The position numbers and the translations under genes were made by a program. A DNA stretch of 64,000 nt from Podospora anserina (Eukaryota). Location: assembly GCA_017654855.1 (NCBI GenBank), contig CM030337.1:4092001-4156000 (forward strand), written 5' to 3'. Within the stretch, counting starts at the first letter, position 1, and the number at the start of each line of letters is the position of its first letter. This document shows, piece by piece, positions 18,855 to 24,506 of this stretch. The notes beneath the pieces are model-generated. The model saw nothing but the letters and a program-made list of their open reading frames with translations. It made no database searches and was not told where the DNA came from.

Positions 18855-19532
18855 TGCCTTTCGGCTGTCATCAACCCATGTAAGAGGCTGAGTCTTGAGT
18901 CAAGGGAAACAAGAATGTTTTGGTAATATACAACCAAAGATGCTGTGAAATGGTCCGTCAGAAAGAGGGCAAAGTGTACGACGCCCTTTCAGTCACAGGA
19001 ATAAATATATCCAGCATGGGCGCCTGGCATCTTAAGCTAGAATATACCAGTCCTGGCCATGAAAATGCAGTGGAAGCTGCCCGTTTAGTCTTGTCCAATG
19101 GGCGTCAGACCATCAACTGGCAAGGATATTGTTGGTGACTTGCCTAGACCCGAGTACGGAGCCTTCCGTGTTGATGCAGTGGGTGAGTCAGGGTACGATG
19201 TCGATCGTCAATCATCGTTGGATTTGGTCCAATAGGTTCATAGATGTGGTGTAGCACTGCATGATTCTATTTCGGTGAGATCGCACAACATGGCGCCAAT
19301 GCTTTACTTGAAACTCGAGTCCCTGTGAACCTGCAGCCTGGTTTGCGTGACCCTTATCCCACCAAAGTGAGTAGCACATAGAAGAGCATACAGTATCACC
19401 TCAGGCTGTGGATGAGGAAGACGTCAAAACGCATCCTACTTGAAGCGTTGCCACAAGAAAAGGGCAGAGATATGAAATAGGCTCGTTAGGATAAAAGACC
19501 TTTTCCCAAACACGTCTTGCTACATTCTCACC

Positions 19533-22500
19533 TCATCCGACGGTCACTCTTTGAACCCCCTCTTCACCCAGAAACCCGCCCGGCATATAGCCCACTCCAA
19601 TTCGCTGATAGATCGTCTCATGGCCATCGCCCTCAGTAAGAGCCGTGATAATAAGCAAGTAATGCGTTCTGTGTTCCACAGGCACAATCTCCCCCTTTGC
19701 TATCCGTCTGGTCCCCACAACCACCGCTTTCCACCCTTCCCATCCCGTAACTCCTTGTGCATTCCCAGCGTCCAGAATAACATCAACACTCTCTCCCGGC
19801 TCGCCAACAGGCTCAAAAACAAATGGTCGTGCCATCGCTTTCAACACGGCTGTCTCATTTGAGGGATCATTGCGACCCGAGCCGGGAGAAGAAAACGGGT
19901 CAAGCACCGCATCATTCCTCCAGTCGACACCTCCAAGCGGTAAGTCCAGGTAGTCAATCGCACCGTCATACGCCATCCAACTCCAGCTAGGCAAGCTCTT
20001 CCCTTCCTTTTGCTTGGCTTTCGAAAAGTCCACCCTGTTCAATGTCGATGCCTCGGCGCCACGTCTCCAGAGCAGTGATCGAGACAACAAGCTGCCGCCG
20101 TCATGGAAAATTCCATACCCGCCTTTGGCCTTCAAGTTGTTGATCATTCGCTGCTCAAGTCCGGCTATGGCAACGGGGCGATCGGTGAGGCGGGTGAAGT
20201 TGAGGCGGGAATATTGTCGGTACAGGTCCTCGTAGAAGCGGATGCGCTCACCTCGGTCGAAACCTTTGTCGGAGAGGGAGCTTGATAGTTTCGATGGGAA
20301 GGACGGGTCGCCGAGAAAGGAGACGAGTTTACTGTGTTTTTTTGTCAGTATGACCGAGGACAAAATTCAAGTAGAGTTTGAGGCAGGAGCGGTGTAAACA
20401 ACAGGCGAAGTGGGGCGCAAGAAAGGTTCACGGGTTCAGGGGTAAAAACACCAGACATACTTGTCAATCTTGGTCAGGGTTTCGCATCTCACTCCGCAGC
20501 CGCACTCCCAGTAGGTTTGCCAGTCGGTAAAGTAGATTGTCCTTCGGGCCAAGGCGCGTTCTTGCAGGACCCAACCCCTCTTGCTCAAGGGCCCATTCAG
20601 CACGTGCTCCGCAAAGTTGTCAATAAACCGGCAGACGTACAGACTGCCCTTCTGGTTGGAACTACTGGACTCGCCACGTAGTTGAAGGAATTGCCTTTCC
20701 TTTCTGGTTCTGAGAAACCCATCCCTTTGCCCTCGTGCGCTACTTGCGGCAATGACACAGTAGGCTGCGCTGAAGACATCTTCCATTCTCTTGGCTTCCT
20801 TCTCAAAGTCGCCGTGGGGCCCTTGGATGATACATATGGAGTCTATCCACAAATACCGAACACCTAGAGCACGAGTGGCGGCTATTGCGTCACGGAAGGT
20901 GTCAGGGAAGTTGGGGCTCCGCACAGGAATAGCTGCTTTGTGTTGAGCAAGGTTGTGAGGAAAAGTACAAAACGAATGACCTTGGCCCCATGGATGCGAG
21001 AGAGCAATGTATTTGACGGTCTCCGTGGTTGTTGTTTGGATGAGACGCACGACGGGAGCGTCAGGGCTGCCAAGATCAATAAGTCTGGTGGGAGGTGGGT
21101 ATTTCTTTACCGGATCGCATCCTCGGTGGTTCTCGTCACAGTCGTTGAGCCATTCTGTCAGAAAGGCAAAGTGGGTCGTCGAAGCAGGCGCTGGAAGGCT
21201 GGGAAACCCAATCTGAATGTGATTGGAGTTTGGCGCCATGAAATCTTTTCCTCGTTAGTACGTAATACAGGTTGACCGGGGAATAGAATTGGCGAGCACT
21301 GACCAGGGCTTCGGCAGATTGACAAGACCGGAATGGGATTCTCGTTAAGCTTGAGCATTGACTGCTCGCGGTCGAAGCGGACTGTCTGTACCAGGCCCCG
21401 GTTGATATGGTGGCATGCCTCGTACCTCAACTTGCAGAAATCACACAGGGCACGCTTGACATCGAGCTCTGCCAGAGTGTCTGTAATGTGAAATTGAGGC
21501 ACGCAGAGATCGTACGCGGCGCAGGTTCCACAGAGGCGAGCTTGCGCGAGCTTCACTGGGTAGATGTCTGGAACGCTCAGCGCTGAAACAAGCTGCCGGG
21601 CGAACTTGTTGTCGACGGGATACTCGGTTCTGTCAAGCTTTAGATGATGTTAGACATCAGGATGACAAGAATATCAGGTGATACCAGCTGAAAGAGGATG
21701 TTTACCTACCTTTGACTTTTTTTCTCTGGTTAACTCATCGCCGCAGGGATTTCAATCTCAGAAGTCACTTACGGCCTAAGATGGTTAGCCTTCAACATTC
21801 CACAGATGGGAAGATTCCTTACGTTCTGCTTATCAAGTGTCAGTGCCGGAATAATCTCTACCACAATTAAGAATCGTAGAATGCACTTACACGCTACAAG
21901 GCTACCTGTCAGCCATGCGAGTCTACAATGTATTAACCGCTCAGGGAATAGCATTAACACTTACGTACTAAAACACAACTGTCAGAATCTCTGTCTTTTA
22001 ACTCATTTCAGCGGAATTTACTGGTGCTTACCTCCTATATCCGCGCCGCGGGCATTCGATTAGCTGTGCCCTTCAAAGTATTGTCCTGTCCTAGGTGGGT
22101 CTGTGGGGAGTCATACATCCTGAGATATCTTAGCATAAACCAAAGCCTCGTTAGACCGGTAATCATACTCGTCTTGTTTTTGCTTCAACAACTGTAATTA
22201 CAGGGACCATCAAGCTTGGCTGATCCTCGAATCCGGCATCAGGAATTATACCACCGCCATTCTCTCCAAGGGGCCTCAAAGGGGGCCTAGGTCGGAGGGG
22301 CCGGTTTCCTCCTACCGCTGAGTTTGGCGAAAGGAAGGAAGACTCTGGTGCTCTGTCGACCTTCAAGTCTTTGATATGCTCGCGGCTGGCGCCCGTGAAC
22401 CAGTATGACTCGTCGGTTTTGCCTCGAGCCACAATATCATCTAGACGCTCCATGAGTTCTTGAGAGTATGCGCGAGAGCCGTTGGTGGACCTTGGGGGGG

Positions 22501-24092
22501 CTGAACTGCTGACGGGTGTGGCTGGAGGGTCCAGTTCCACGACGAGAAGTTTGGTCTTGACGATGGTGAGAAGCTCCTTCAGTGCAGTCTCTGCCTTGCA
22601 TTCTGGATCGTAATACAGGGCTCTGATTGTCGCCTGGACATGGGGATGCACGAATGCCTCGTCTTTATCTTTGTCGACCTTGAACCAGTGGCTTCTATGC
22701 CTTCCCTCGTCGATGATCTGGCTGTTGAACCTTTCCAGATGATCGGTGCCATACAGCAGCCAGATCATCATCTCCAAAATCACGCATCCGAATGACCACA
22801 TGTCGTATCGTCGGGAACGGCCAAGCTCGGACTTCAAGGCCACCTCGGGAGGTTCGTAGCGGGTTGTCGTGTATTGAGTTGATGTGTTGTGTCGCAGTTG
22901 GGTAGCAATGTTGTGATGTTTTGCAAGTCCCATGTCGGAAATCTTGAGAATAGGAAAGCCGAACTGGCCGTCTCGAGGTGGTTGGCCGACCACACACAGG
23001 ATGTTTTCGGGTTTCAAGTCTCCATGCCGGTATGAGCCTCCTCCGTAGCGGTAATTGTGCAGCTTGTCGAGCGCATCCGCCATTCCTTGGATCTGCATGA
23101 TGACGGCTCGGACAAGCTCTCTTGTCACGACTGGACGCTTGTGTTCAGGCATTTCCCAAAACTTTCTTAGGCTTCCCTCCTCTGCCCAGCGAAAAAGCAG
23201 ATATCGGTCACTGCCACGCTTGATGGCGGCGATAAACTCGATGATATTCTGATGTTTGAGGTTGCGCATCTCAATGTGAGCCTTGACTTCGCGTACCCAT
23301 TCATCTCGAAGTTGATCCAGTTCGTTTTCATCCGTGGTGTCGCGATAAACCGGCCTGATGACCTTGATGGCAACATCGGCTCGTTTGCCATCATACTATG
23401 TGAGCGTGAATATCAGCACCTAATACATGCGAGAGACCTGTTCTGAGGTAAAGCAAACAAACCTTCATGATGGGATTCAGATGGTGCTCTTCGTGGATCT
23501 TGACCTGGAAAACTTCGCCGAAAGCACCTGATTCGCCCGCTCTTGACTTTTCAGTAATGGGAAGAATACAATCCGGATCAAGATCCAGCTCGGGGTTGCT
23601 CTCTGAGATGATTGGTACGAGAACCGTCCATTGGTTTCGACGAAAACTGCGCCTGGACACCTCAGTCCATGGTTCCAGAAATTCACCAGCTTCGTCAACG
23701 AATGCGCTGTCAGGAAGAGGTAGGGAGTTGTCGTTCACAGATTTTGTCTCAAATTGTATCATGGCTGTTGCTAGCTCCTCGTCTTTGTCGGTAAGTCCGG
23801 CCAGCAGTGACGTGATAAAAAGTTTGGGGGCACTTTTCATCACAAAGTTGACAACATCTTCTTCCAACTCCGGGTCATCGGACAGGTGCAGTTCCCGACG
23901 AACAGCAGCTGGGGTGAGAAGAGTCTCGATGCAAGTATTGGGTAGGAATTCTCGAATGTGTTCATCGAAAACACTCTTCTGTAGGTTGCCCAGAATGTCT
24001 GAGCCAAGAGAGGACTTTTTACTCTTCTTGGCCAGAAAAGATGCCTTTCGGTCTTCTTTGGAGATGAACTTTGGTTCCTCTTGGAGCGGCAT
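19533..24092 (-). CDS. Protein kinase-HET (heterokaryon incompatibility domain) fusion, ~1265 aa, 12 exons including 7 micro-exons
   Basis: Kinase: GESGAFGEV, VAIK, HGDLKPEN, DMG, YEPPE, DMWSFG. HET: PTRLID, YIALSHPWG, YLWIDSICIIQG, RGWVLQE. Exons 24092-23463, 23395-22169, six 3-nt and one 6-nt exon, 21637-21304, 21244-20461, 20331-19533; total 3798 nt in frame. Confidence 0.88.
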
Positions 24093-24506
24093 CTTGCATG
24101 ATGAGACTGTTTGAGATGGAAATGATCTTGTGCGGTAAATGACAATGTGTCAGCTCAATGGAAAATGAGAAAATAATAACGCGGGTAGGTACTCTAAGAC
24201 ACTTTTACGACTTTGACTGGCGTTAGTTAGGGGGCACTGAACTTGTACTAGCTTCCCGCAGCCTGGTCCATCCTCATGCCATTTCTTGGCTTCGACCCCC
24301 TCATCAGGCACACCACCCTGACTGGACTGGATGATGCGCCACCATTGATAAGATACCCCAATATTTCCAGGGCGACACGGGCTTGTCATCACAATGGCAC
24401 TGCGCATGCGGCACGTATCACTATCCTTCGCAAAACAGGGCGTGAACATGACAGCCTCGTCCTACATCATTGCCACTTGGGTGCCCGTCATGACCGTTGC
24501 CCGAAT

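What the first reader, a model, noticed from the sequence alone, without database searches (positions are those of the whole stretch)
21638..22168. Array of six single-codon (3-nt) exons plus one 6-nt exon linking a kinase to a HET domain
Seen in sequence (minus strand): this apparently non-coding gap is tiled by eight introns, each with a GT donor, a branch-like motif and an AG acceptor: 22168-22120, 22116-22035, 22031-21968, 21964-21894, 21890-21826, 21822-21776, 21772-21716, 21709-21638. Between them lie exons GAT (22119-22117), GAG (22034-22032), TAC (21967-21965), CGT (21893-21891), AAC (21825-21823), GCC (21775-21773) and TCAAAG (21715-21710). All junctions are phase 0, giving ..EAKTRR-D-E-Y-R-N-A-SK-LDRTEYPVDN.. 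in frame with both flanking ORFs. Six consecutive YAG|NNN|GTA junctions are very unlikely by chance, and gene finders would probably split the gene. Established: HET domains are cell-death effectors in fungal non-self recognition. Inference: any subset of the micro-exons can be skipped without frameshift (up to 128 linker variants), so the array could diversify or gate the kinase-HET linker.
Basis: partly seen in the sequence, partly recalled or inferred. Interest (0 to 1): 0.95.

Follow-up and report, generated by a model that had tools for sequence, protein, structure and literature searches.

The report
Conserved run of single-codon exons
In a Podospora-like fungus, eight short introns spaced one codon apart join a kinase to a cell-death (HET) domain, RNA data show the tiny exons are spliced in, and the same layout recurs in distant fungal relatives.

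Summary
On the minus strand, 22168-21638 holds eight GT..AG introns of 47-82 nt. They are separated by six 3-nt exons and one 6-nt exon.

RNA-type contigs from public runs carry the predicted 24 nt (D-E-Y-R-N-A-S-K) between the kinase and HET reading frames. A second form has an extra CAG from a tandem acceptor. Partly spliced contigs show individual introns removed separately. No exon-skipping form was seen.

The array is not lineage-specific. 12 of 80 metagenomic relatives have chains of at least 3 such introns at the same place, all on the gene strand and none on the opposite strand. Two of them (L001, L010) have the same 3,3,3,3,3,3,6 layout and the same six amino acids, with synonymous codon changes and unalignable introns. 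One locus (L026) has about 29 tandem copies of an "intron plus codon" unit.

The motif is conserved and is uninterrupted in one metagenomic locus (L039); other relatives have an uninterrupted linker without it.

My reading is an old, constitutively spliced micro-exon array that encodes a conserved linker motif, not a generator of 128 variants. The closest precedent is the codon-sized mini-exons of Tuber melanosporum nank genes.

The parts
23463..24092 (-). exon 1 (ATG at 24092; 210 codons, N-terminal region without Pfam match)
   Evidence: ORF. Joint 23395/23463 in 4 of 4 runs. Frame check. No Pfam family.
23396..23462 (-). ordinary intron, 67 nt
   Evidence: Skipped in contigs of 4 of 4 runs.
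22169..23395 (-). exon 2: protein kinase domain and tail ending ..EAKTRR
   Evidence: Pfam Pkinase E 4e-26. Covered by RNA contigs in 4 of 4 runs.
22120..22168 (-). array intron 1 (49 nt, GTATGA..CAG); if retained the frame reads V then stop
   Evidence: Direct joint 22118/22168 in X1.
22117..22119 (-). micro-exon GAT (Asp)
   Evidence: Present in the joined letters of X1 and X2 and in loose ends of X2 and X5.
22035..22116 (-). array intron 2 (82 nt)
   Evidence: Retained in partly spliced contigs X1 record 3 and X2 record 8, absent from the full joint.
22032..22034 (-). micro-exon GAG (Glu)
21968..22031 (-). array intron 3 (64 nt)
   Evidence: Direct joint 21967/22032 in X1.
21965..21967 (-). 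micro-exon TAC (Tyr), the unit most often kept in relatives
   Evidence: A TAY single-codon exon is seen in 10 of the 12 array loci.
21894..21964 (-). array intron 4 (71 nt)
   Evidence: Retained in X1 record 3 and X2 record 7, absent from the full joint.
21891..21893 (-). micro-exon CGT (Arg)
21826..21890 (-). array intron 5 (65 nt) with a tandem acceptor: ending at 21829 instead leaves CAG in the mRNA (62-nt intron, exon CAGAAC)
   Evidence: Joint 21828/21891 in X1. Letters between joints occur with and without CAG in both X1 and X2.
21823..21825 (-). micro-exon AAC (Asn); 21823-21828 CAGAAC in the longer form
21776..21822 (-). array intron 6 (47 nt, GTAAGG donor); retention shifts the frame
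   Evidence: Retained in X1 record 2.
21773..21775 (-). micro-exon GCC (Ala)
21716..21772 (-). array intron 7 (57 nt, AAG acceptor)
   Evidence: Absent from the full joints.
21710..21715 (-). micro-exon TCAAAG (Ser-Lys)
21638..21709 (-). array intron 8 (72 nt, AAG acceptor)
   Evidence: Joint 21637/21710 in X1 and X2.
21304..21637 (-). exon: N-terminal region that precedes HET domains (LDRTEYPVDNKF.., Cys-rich)
   Evidence: It has no ATG before its residue 97, so it needs upstream exons.
21245..21303 (-). ordinary intron, 59 nt
   Evidence: Skipped in 4 of 4 runs.
20461..21244 (-). exon with HET domain
   Evidence: Pfam HET E 4e-30.
20332..20460 (-). ordinary intron, 129 nt
   Evidence: Skipped in 4 of 4 runs.
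19533..20331 (-). last exon, up to the stop codon

Best explanation
This is a real and old micro-exon array inside one gene for a 1265-residue kinase-HET protein. Shown: eight short introns are each removed on their own, in no strict 5'-to-3' order. The mature mRNA keeps all seven micro-exons, which spell D-E-Y-R-(Q)-N-A-S-K between ..TRR and LDRTEYPVDN... Shown: the same place in distant relatives holds the same kind of array. Two loci have the identical 3,3,3,3,3,3,6 layout and the same six residues. Inferred: removal works by ordinary intron definition, as is usual for short fungal introns, so no exon has to be recognised as a unit. U1 pairs with positions -3 to +6 of a donor and so covers the whole micro-exon and the upstream acceptor; neighbouring introns probably cannot be engaged at once. 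Inferred origin: tandem amplification of an 'intron plus one codon' unit in a linker, then divergence of the introns while the codons came under protein-level selection. Relatives with an uninterrupted linker would have lost the introns later. Consequence (shown from sequence): any single unspliced intron stops or shifts the frame before the HET part. Whether that is used as a splicing-dependent brake on a cell-death protein is open; I put it at about 0.3.
For: Sequence: and (signals; one open frame). RNA: in X1 the letters between 22168 and 21641, reverse-complemented and read with the shared flanking bases, give GAT GAG TAC CGT AAC GCC TCAAAG (depth 25.3). In X2 the same appears with CAG before AAC (depth 7.2). 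Loose ends of the long X5 contigs read into the chain from both sides. Three ordinary introns are skipped in 4 of 4 runs, which shows these runs are RNA. Partly spliced contigs: X1 record 3 has introns 1 and 3 out and 2 and 4 in. X2 record 8 has 3-5 out and 2 in. X2 record 7 has 1-3 out and 4 in. X1 record 2 has 5 out and 6 in. Chance. Relatives: 15 chains of at least 3 introns in 12 of 80 loci (476,310 nt) on the gene strand, 0 on the other strand. L001 reads K|D|E|Y|R|N|A|AQ|IDKTEF and L010 reads TRR|D|E|Y|R|N|A|IE|VDRVGF. The codons are GAT/GAT/GAT, GAG/GAA/GAA, TAC/TAT/TAT, CGT/CGA/CGT, AAC/AAC/AAT, GCC/GCG/GCA. So 6 of 6 residues are kept and 5 of 6 codons differ at the third base; introns at the same position are no more alike than introns at other positions; the motif [DN]EYRNA is written in annotated proteins P0007, P0009, P0010, P0013, P0015 and P0026. 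L039 has it uninterrupted; arrays occur in every major clade of a 26-row tree; L001 (array) is sister to L039 (uninterrupted), support 98. L026 has about 29 tandem units of a 65/70-nt intron plus 3 nt.
Against: The runs are labelled 'RNA?' by guess. The single-transcript reading therefore rests on several short contigs and loose ends, not on one long molecule. Contigs cannot show rare isoforms, so skipping at low level is not excluded. The arrays in the metagenomic loci are read from DNA only. The window's introns show no trace of common descent, so tandem amplification as their origin is an analogy with L026, not shown. The tree is a quick search with 7 of 22 open forks and long branches. It does not tell gains from losses. 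Contig depths differ strongly between the kinase part and the HET part in X1 (1788 against 134). One simple transcript does not explain that.
Confidence: 0.85

Rival explanations
1. Selected splicing gate: the array is kept because eight closely packed splicing events must all succeed before the HET cell-death part is translated. Failures yield a kinase-only product, so splicing efficiency sets the dose of the dangerous full-length protein.
For: Read-through of 7 of 8 introns hits a stop within 2-12 codons, and the eighth (47 nt) shifts the frame. Intron 1 gives a stop after one codon. Partly spliced contigs are present beside the finished form in X1 and X2. The array has persisted in several deep clades.
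Against: About as many relatives have an uninterrupted linker (12 loci) as have arrays (10 loci) among the 26 with room to judge. The gate is therefore dispensable. No condition-dependent splicing was measured, and contig depths cannot be used for that. Stops in retained introns are expected of any intron.
Confidence: 0.3
2. Combinatorial diversifier: subsets of micro-exons are skipped to make many linker variants.
For: All exons are phase 0 and multiples of 3, so any subset keeps the frame. One in-frame variant (plus or minus CAG) exists in X1 and X2. In L026 the three exonic bases are the most variable columns of the repeated unit.
Against: No contig in 4 runs lacks a micro-exon. The six residues are identical in window, L010 and L001 despite saturated intron divergence. 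The motif is fixed in annotated relatives.
Confidence: 0.08
3. Repeated independent intron gain at successive codon boundaries of an originally uninterrupted DEYRNA exon (an insertion hot spot), rather than one old array with later losses.
For: Uninterrupted forms are common and lie next to array forms on the tree. The window's introns share no sequence.
Against: The same eight positions and the same 3,3,3,3,3,3,6 layout occur in three loci whose introns are unalignable. A lone Tyr codon exon recurs in other subfamilies with different neighbours. Loss of adjacent introns together through cDNA is a known route (from general knowledge, not tested here).
Confidence: 0.12
4. Chance pattern inside one long intron, or an intergenic gap between a kinase gene (ending ..TRRV-stop) and a separate HET gene.
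For: The kinase frame does end with a stop two codons into intron 1.
Against: The joined 24/27-nt form and the single-intron joints are seen in RNA contigs. The simulated longest chain is 2-3. The HET-side exon has no start codon near its beginning. Kinase-HET fusions are the rule among relatives.
Confidence: 0.01

Closest known systems
Codon-sized mini-exons of the Tuber melanosporum nank (NACHT-ANK) gene family (Iotti et al. 2012, Fungal Biol 116:261). The paper is not held. I saw it only as cited passages in PMC3689799, PMC4986451, PMC10197012 and PMC13449251.
   Same: Many consecutive 3-nt exons in a fungal gene of the non-self recognition / cell-death class. L026 here, with about 29 units, resembles 'tens of' mini-exons.
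   Different: The gene family differs (kinase-HET, not NACHT-ANK). Here the exons are included constitutively as far as contigs show, they encode a conserved motif, and the array is shared by distant lineages. The Tuber case is described as a lineage-specific diversification device based on alternative splicing.
Single ultra-short exons in fungi and plants: the 1-nt exon of Fusarium CYP621A (PMC12940212, abstract and passages read), the 1-nt exon of Arabidopsis APC11 (PMC4674806, listing only), and the Trichoderma Xlr2 microexon switch (PMC11121469, passages read).
   Same: Exons far below the usual size, inside a conserved motif, missed by gene finders and confirmed from public RNA runs.
   Different: Those are single exons. 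Here seven follow each other, six of them one codon long.
Recursive splicing and stwintrons (PMC6224609, listing only; PMC6616335, one methods passage read)
   Same: Stepwise removal of adjoining intervening sequences; a donor lies directly after an acceptor region.
   Different: In those cases the intermediate exon is zero-length or is removed again. Here the 3 nt stay in the mRNA and are translated.
Introner-like elements of Dothideomycetes (PMC4457414, listing only)
   Same: Multiplication of intron sequences as a source of new introns, as seen in L026.
   Different: Introner-like elements are dispersed near-identical introns in many genes. In L026 the copies are tandem within one gene and each carries a codon. 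The window's introns are not alike.

Membership tests
Codon-sized micro-exon arrays (Tuber nank type) | Several consecutive 3-nt exons separated by short canonical introns | tested here: met
   Six 3-nt exons and one 6-nt exon, eight GT..AG introns, present in RNA contigs.
Codon-sized micro-exon arrays (Tuber nank type) | Host gene is a NACHT-ANK NLR | tested here: not met
   Pfam finds Pkinase and HET only. Relatives are Pkinase+HET.
Codon-sized micro-exon arrays (Tuber nank type) | Extensive alternative splicing of the mini-exons | tested here: inconclusive
   Only a plus/minus CAG tandem acceptor variant was seen in contigs of 4 runs, with no skipping. Contigs drop rare forms.
Pkinase-HET fusion proteins of Pezizomycotina | Protein kinase domain upstream of a HET domain in one reading frame | tested here: met
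   (both domains). (one 1265-codon frame). (in-frame join in RNA contigs, short sides). (most of the 120 listed relatives carry both Pfam families; best 85% identity).
Pkinase-HET fusion proteins of Pezizomycotina | Conserved linker motif ..[DN]EYRNA.. followed by [LI]D.T.FPVDN.F | tested here: met
   Window: DEYRNASK + LDRTEYPVDNKF. Same motif in P0007, P0009, P0010, P0013, P0015, P0026 and in L001, L010, L039.
Recursive splice sites / stwintrons | Intermediate exon of zero length, or a splice signal rebuilt by a first excision | tested here: not met
   Each intron has its own complete signals and the 3-nt exons remain in the mRNA.
Introner-like elements | Near-identical intron copies | tested here: not met
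   Window introns: 41% mean column identity, only GTA..AG shared. No repeat family.
NAGNAG tandem acceptors | Two AG acceptors 3 nt apart, both used | tested here: met
   Intron 5 ends AAG|CAG|AAC. Forms with and without CAG occur in X1 and X2.
Known structured RNA families | Match to an Rfam model or unusually stable fold | tested here: not met
   0 Rfam matches at E up to 1. Fold z-score -0.03.

The most novel reading that the evidence does not exclude
Tandem amplification of 'one short intron plus one codon' is a general way in which filamentous fungi build and remodel linker or variable peptides in cell-death and non-self recognition genes. It would underlie Tuber nank, the kinase-HET family and L026. 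The old DEYRNA array would be kept by selection as a multi-step splicing fuse that limits how much HET-bearing protein is made. That would also give a tractable natural system for asking how a spliceosome handles 3-nt exons and in what order neighbouring introns must go.
Probability: 0.25. Interest if true: 0.9.

Novelty: new variant of a known kind. Interest (0 to 1): 0.8.

Why it matters
Exons of 3 nt are usually treated as rare single oddities. Here six in a row, plus a 6-nt one, appear to be spliced correctly as a matter of routine, and the layout has outlasted complete divergence of the intron sequences in distant fungi. That gives a natural test bed, in a relative of a genetic model fungus, for several questions: the limits of intron definition, the splicing order of abutting introns, and how introns multiply (L026 shows the process caught in the act).

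It also has a practical side. Public protein models of related species omit a conserved motif because gene finders cannot see these exons. Family alignments and domain boundaries of kinase-HET proteins are therefore wrong at this spot. Finally, it links a second family of fungal cell-death genes to the codon-sized exon phenomenon so far reported only for truffle NLR genes.

Tried and rejected
- No listed run is on record as RNA ('RNA?' is a guess). I relied on the clean skipping of three ordinary introns to treat X1, X2, X5 and X6 as RNA.
- Parts without cover in X5 and X6 inside the array say nothing either way.
- No whole genome is held for this window, so paralogues in the same genome and genome-wide counts of such arrays could not be examined.
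That their arrays exist is inferred only from protein models that skip the motif.
- AlphaFold2 model of P0009 from the 16-row alignment A2: mean pLDDT 58, linker residues 338-406 below 50. It gives no information on what the motif does, and I ran no fold search.
- A relaxed chain finder (weak donors, any acceptor, exons up to 12 nt) gave many chains on both strands and was dropped as unspecific. My in-frame path search tied or failed on L001 and L020, so I read L001 and L010 by eye.
- Rfam and RNA folding of the array: nothing.
- Earlier notes of this scan: only mitochondrial mini-exons between group I/II introns, which are unrelated; nothing for this genome or this sequence.
- Literature: searches found no paper on a micro-exon array in kinase-HET genes or in Podospora. 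The P. anserina re-annotation paper (PMC9801653, term search only) has no hit for small or short exons. Iotti et al. 2012 is not held. Supplements were not opened.
- I did not run the 'near'-length protein search that would show how the window's own species annotates the gene.
Full report
**What is in the sequence**

- It holds eight introns of 49, 82, 64, 71, 65, 47, 57 and 72 nt.
- Each intron has a GTA-type donor: GTATGA twice, GTAAGC, GTAAGT three times, GTAAGG and GTAGGT.
- Each has a CTRAY-like branch motif 9-31 nt before the acceptor, and each ends in AG.
- Between the introns lie GAT, GAG, TAC, CGT, AAC, GCC and TCAAAG.
- Upstream is an exon with a protein kinase domain (Pfam Pkinase, E 4e-26). 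Downstream is the Cys-rich region that precedes a HET domain (Pfam HET, E 4e-30 in the next exon).
- With three further ordinary introns, the whole gene reads as one frame of 1265 codons from an ATG at 24092 to a stop at 19533.
- The eight introns are not copies of one another. Mean column identity is 41%, only GTA..AG is invariant, and no tandem or dispersed repeat is present.

**Is it more than chance?**

I wrote a simple chain finder. It looks for a donor hexamer, a length of 40-140 nt, a branch motif and a non-GAG acceptor, and then requires the next donor 1-9 nt further on.
- It found one chain in the 64-kb window, on the minus strand at this place, and none on the plus strand.
- In 100 Markov-1 simulated windows the longest chain was 2 introns (77 windows) or 3 introns (23 windows).

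**RNA evidence**

One search listed 14 runs of transcriptome size that hold 0.56-0.84 of the sampled words of the gene. It also listed 6 genome-size runs that hold all of them. I laid four of the former, from four studies, on 19500-24200.

*Are these runs RNA?* All four skip the three ordinary introns cleanly (20332-20460, 21245-21303, 23396-23462). So they are RNA, although the tool labels that a guess.

*The finished forms.*
- In X1 a contig of depth 25.3 joins 22168 to 21641 with 19 letters between. Reverse-complemented and read with the bases shared at both sides, these letters give GAT GAG TAC CGT AAC GCC TCAAAG.
- In X2 the same joint carries 22 letters. The extra three are CAG before AAC. 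This is the use of the AG at 21830-21829 instead of 21827-21826, a tandem acceptor.
- Both forms occur in X1 and in X2, as shown by shorter contigs.
- In X5 the long HET-side contig runs 11 letters into the chain, and the long kinase-side contig runs 10 letters into it. Both agree with the shorter form.

*Partly spliced contigs.* These show that the introns are separate units.

| Contig | Introns removed | Introns retained |
|---|---|---|
| X1 record 3 | 1 and 3 | 2 and 4 |
| X2 record 8 | 3, 4 and 5 | 2 |
| X2 record 7 | 1-3 | 4 |
| X1 record 2 | 5 (CAG form) | 6 |

No contig joins the flanking exons directly or omits a codon.

*Caveats.*
- The contigs with the full joint have only 19-22 letters on their shorter side, below the tool's threshold of 31 for a bridge.
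- Contigs cannot show rare isoforms, and depths cannot be compared between parts of a gene.

**The motif is conserved**

A search with the kinase exon among longer proteins gave 140 hits at E up to 1e-10 (120 listed). Most carry Pkinase and HET, and they come from many classes of Pezizomycotina. The best hit is 85% identical, from a Triangularia species, which places the window in the Sordariales.

In one search I located the linker in the first 45 of these proteins.
- Six of them (P0007, P0009, P0010, P0013, P0015, P0026) read ..SVTQ...[DN]EYRNA.. directly before ID.T.FPVDN.
- Two Sordariaceae proteins read ..NEYQKAT.. at the same place.
- The closest relatives omit the motif. P0003 and P0004 pass from ..TRR straight to LD.TEF. 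This is what a gene finder would produce if it spliced from the first donor to the last acceptor. P0001, P0002 and P0006 are similar.

**The array is shared by distant relatives**

No genome is held for the window. I therefore fetched 80 metagenomic loci that encode relatives (476,310 nt).

*Scan result.* A strict scan for chains with 3- or 6-nt exons found 15 chains of at least 3 introns in 12 loci: L001, L010, L011, L014, L018, L020, L022, L024, L025, L026, L051 and L055. All lie on the gene strand. On the opposite strand there were none, only 15 chains of 2.

*Position.* In the 10 of these 12 loci that have the N-terminal anchor hit, the chain ends within 200 nt of the FPVDN anchor. L051 and L055 lack that hit, and I placed them by reading the sequence.

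*Identical layouts.* Read by eye, two loci have eight introns, six 3-nt exons and one 6-nt exon, as in the window.
- L001 is ..ALK|D|E|Y|R|N|A|AQ|IDKTEFPVDN.
- L010 is ..TRR|D|E|Y|R|N|A|IE|VDRVGFPVDN.

*Codon conservation.* Across window, L010 and L001 the six residues are the same and 5 of 6 codons differ at the third base.

| Residue | Window | L010 | L001 |
|---|---|---|---|
| Asp | GAT | GAT | GAT |
| Glu | GAG | GAA | GAA |
| Tyr | TAC | TAT | TAT |
| Arg | CGT | CGA | CGT |
| Asn | AAC | AAC | AAT |
| Ala | GCC | GCG | GCA |

*Intron divergence.* Intron sequences at matching positions score no better than at non-matching positions. These are old copies under protein-level selection, not recent transfers.

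*Other subfamilies.* They have the same kind of array with other residues (these parses are partly my own reading of the printed sequence).
- L020: A|D|Y|G|Q|P|H
- L022: E|T|Y|S|H|S|L
- L014: I|D|S|H|P|K
- L018: I|Y|E|R
- L051: R|PLD|Y|A|V|P
- L055: E|DKT|Y|HHQP

A Tyr codon standing alone recurs in 10 of the 12 array loci.

*Counts.* 30 loci have the N-terminal anchor. Dropping 4 with under 400 nt of room upstream leaves 26.
- 10 have arrays.
- 12 have an uninterrupted frame of at least 140 codons, among them L039 with the DEYRNA-type motif.
- 4 fall in neither class. Three of them (L016, L017, L029) have one or two introns there. L066 was not examined.

*Tree.* On a quick tree of the HET region (26 rows; L066, L051 and L055 left out) arrays occur in every major clade.
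- L001 (array) is sister to L039 (uninterrupted), support 98. L026 (array) is sister to L040 (uninterrupted), support 96.
- At least 4 changes of state are forced by well-supported branches, and 8 on the best tree.
- Identical positions are unlikely to arise many times, so I read this as one old array with repeated partial or complete loss. The tree alone cannot prove the direction.

**A clue to the origin**

L026 carries, just upstream of its HET N-terminal region, about 29 tandem copies (86% matches) of a 68- or 73-nt unit. The unit is a 65/70-nt intron (GTAAGT .. CTGAT .. TATAG) plus three bases.
- The acceptor TATAG is invariant in 29 of 29 units.
- The three exonic bases are the most variable columns of the unit.
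- 11 of 30 donors have become AT, and three of the 29 codons are TAG, so part of the array may be decaying.
- Substitutions are mostly transitions (134 of 171), chiefly G to A.

This shows that 'intron plus codon' units can multiply in tandem. It is the simplest source for arrays like the one in the window, but for the window it remains an analogy.

**How it most likely works**

Shown: the introns are removed one by one and the micro-exons stay in the mRNA.

Inferred from established knowledge, recalled and not tested here:
- Short fungal introns are recognised across the intron (intron definition), so a 3-nt exon need not be recognised at all.
- U1 pairs with donor positions -3 to +6. It therefore covers the micro-exon and the preceding acceptor, so abutting introns probably cannot be engaged together.
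- The contig with introns 1 and 3 out and 2 and 4 in fits that picture, but it is a single observation.

Retention of any intron stops the frame (7 of 8) or shifts it (intron 6) before the HET part. Intron 1 gives a stop after one codon. Whether cells use this as a brake on a cell-death protein is not known. Half of the relatives do without the introns.

**What was excluded**

There is no Rfam family and no unusual RNA fold (z -0.03). The AlphaFold2 model of a relative is of low confidence in the linker, so the role of the motif stays open.

**Comparison with what is known**

[quoted passage not shown] The original paper is not held.
- Single ultra-short exons are known in fungi: the 1-nt exon in Fusarium CYP621A (PMC12940212) and the Trichoderma Xlr2 microexon (PMC11121469).
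- My searches found nothing on such an array in kinase-HET genes or in Podospora.

The present case differs from the truffle one in four ways: the gene family, the apparently constitutive inclusion, the conserved peptide it encodes, and its spread across distant lineages.

**Verdict**

It is a new variant of a known but obscure kind, and of high interest for splicing mechanics and intron evolution.

Noticed in passing
L026:224-2268: About 29 tandem copies (86% matches) of a 68/73-nt unit made of a short intron plus 3 nt, upstream of a HET N-terminal region. The acceptor TATAG is invariant in 29 of 29 units and the three exonic bases are the most variable columns. 11 of 30 donors are AT and three of the 29 codons are TAG. 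Substitutions are mostly G to A. The locus seems to start with a short coding exon and has no kinase in the 117 nt available upstream.
   Followed up: partly
window 22169-24200 versus 19500-21641: In run X1 the contig over the kinase exons has mean word depth 1788 and the contig over the HET exons 134. In X2, X5 and X6 the two parts are within about 3-fold of each other. This might reflect transcripts that end in the array, or an overlapping transcript. Contig depth is a poor measure, so it remains unexplained.
   Followed up: no
proteins P0001-P0006: Public protein models of the closest named species omit the conserved DEYRNA-type motif and pass from the kinase tail directly to LD.TEFPVDN. 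This is probably mis-annotation caused by unseen micro-exons.
   Followed up: partly
L014:430-1090: The micro-exon chain I|D|S|H|P|K seems to follow a first coding exon of only ATG TTA. No kinase frame is seen in the 460 nt upstream. If so, arrays also occur in HET genes without a kinase (my reading).
   Followed up: no
L001:3655-3670: Intron 7 of this relative ends ..CCAGTAG. Only the second AG keeps the frame open (AQ), because the first would put TAG in frame. This is another tandem acceptor inside an array.
   Followed up: no
L016:7270-7330, L029:1465-1625: These relatives have only one or two introns at the array position. L029 has a 21-nt exon LDYAHPN between two introns. They look like stages of intron loss.
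   Followed up: partly
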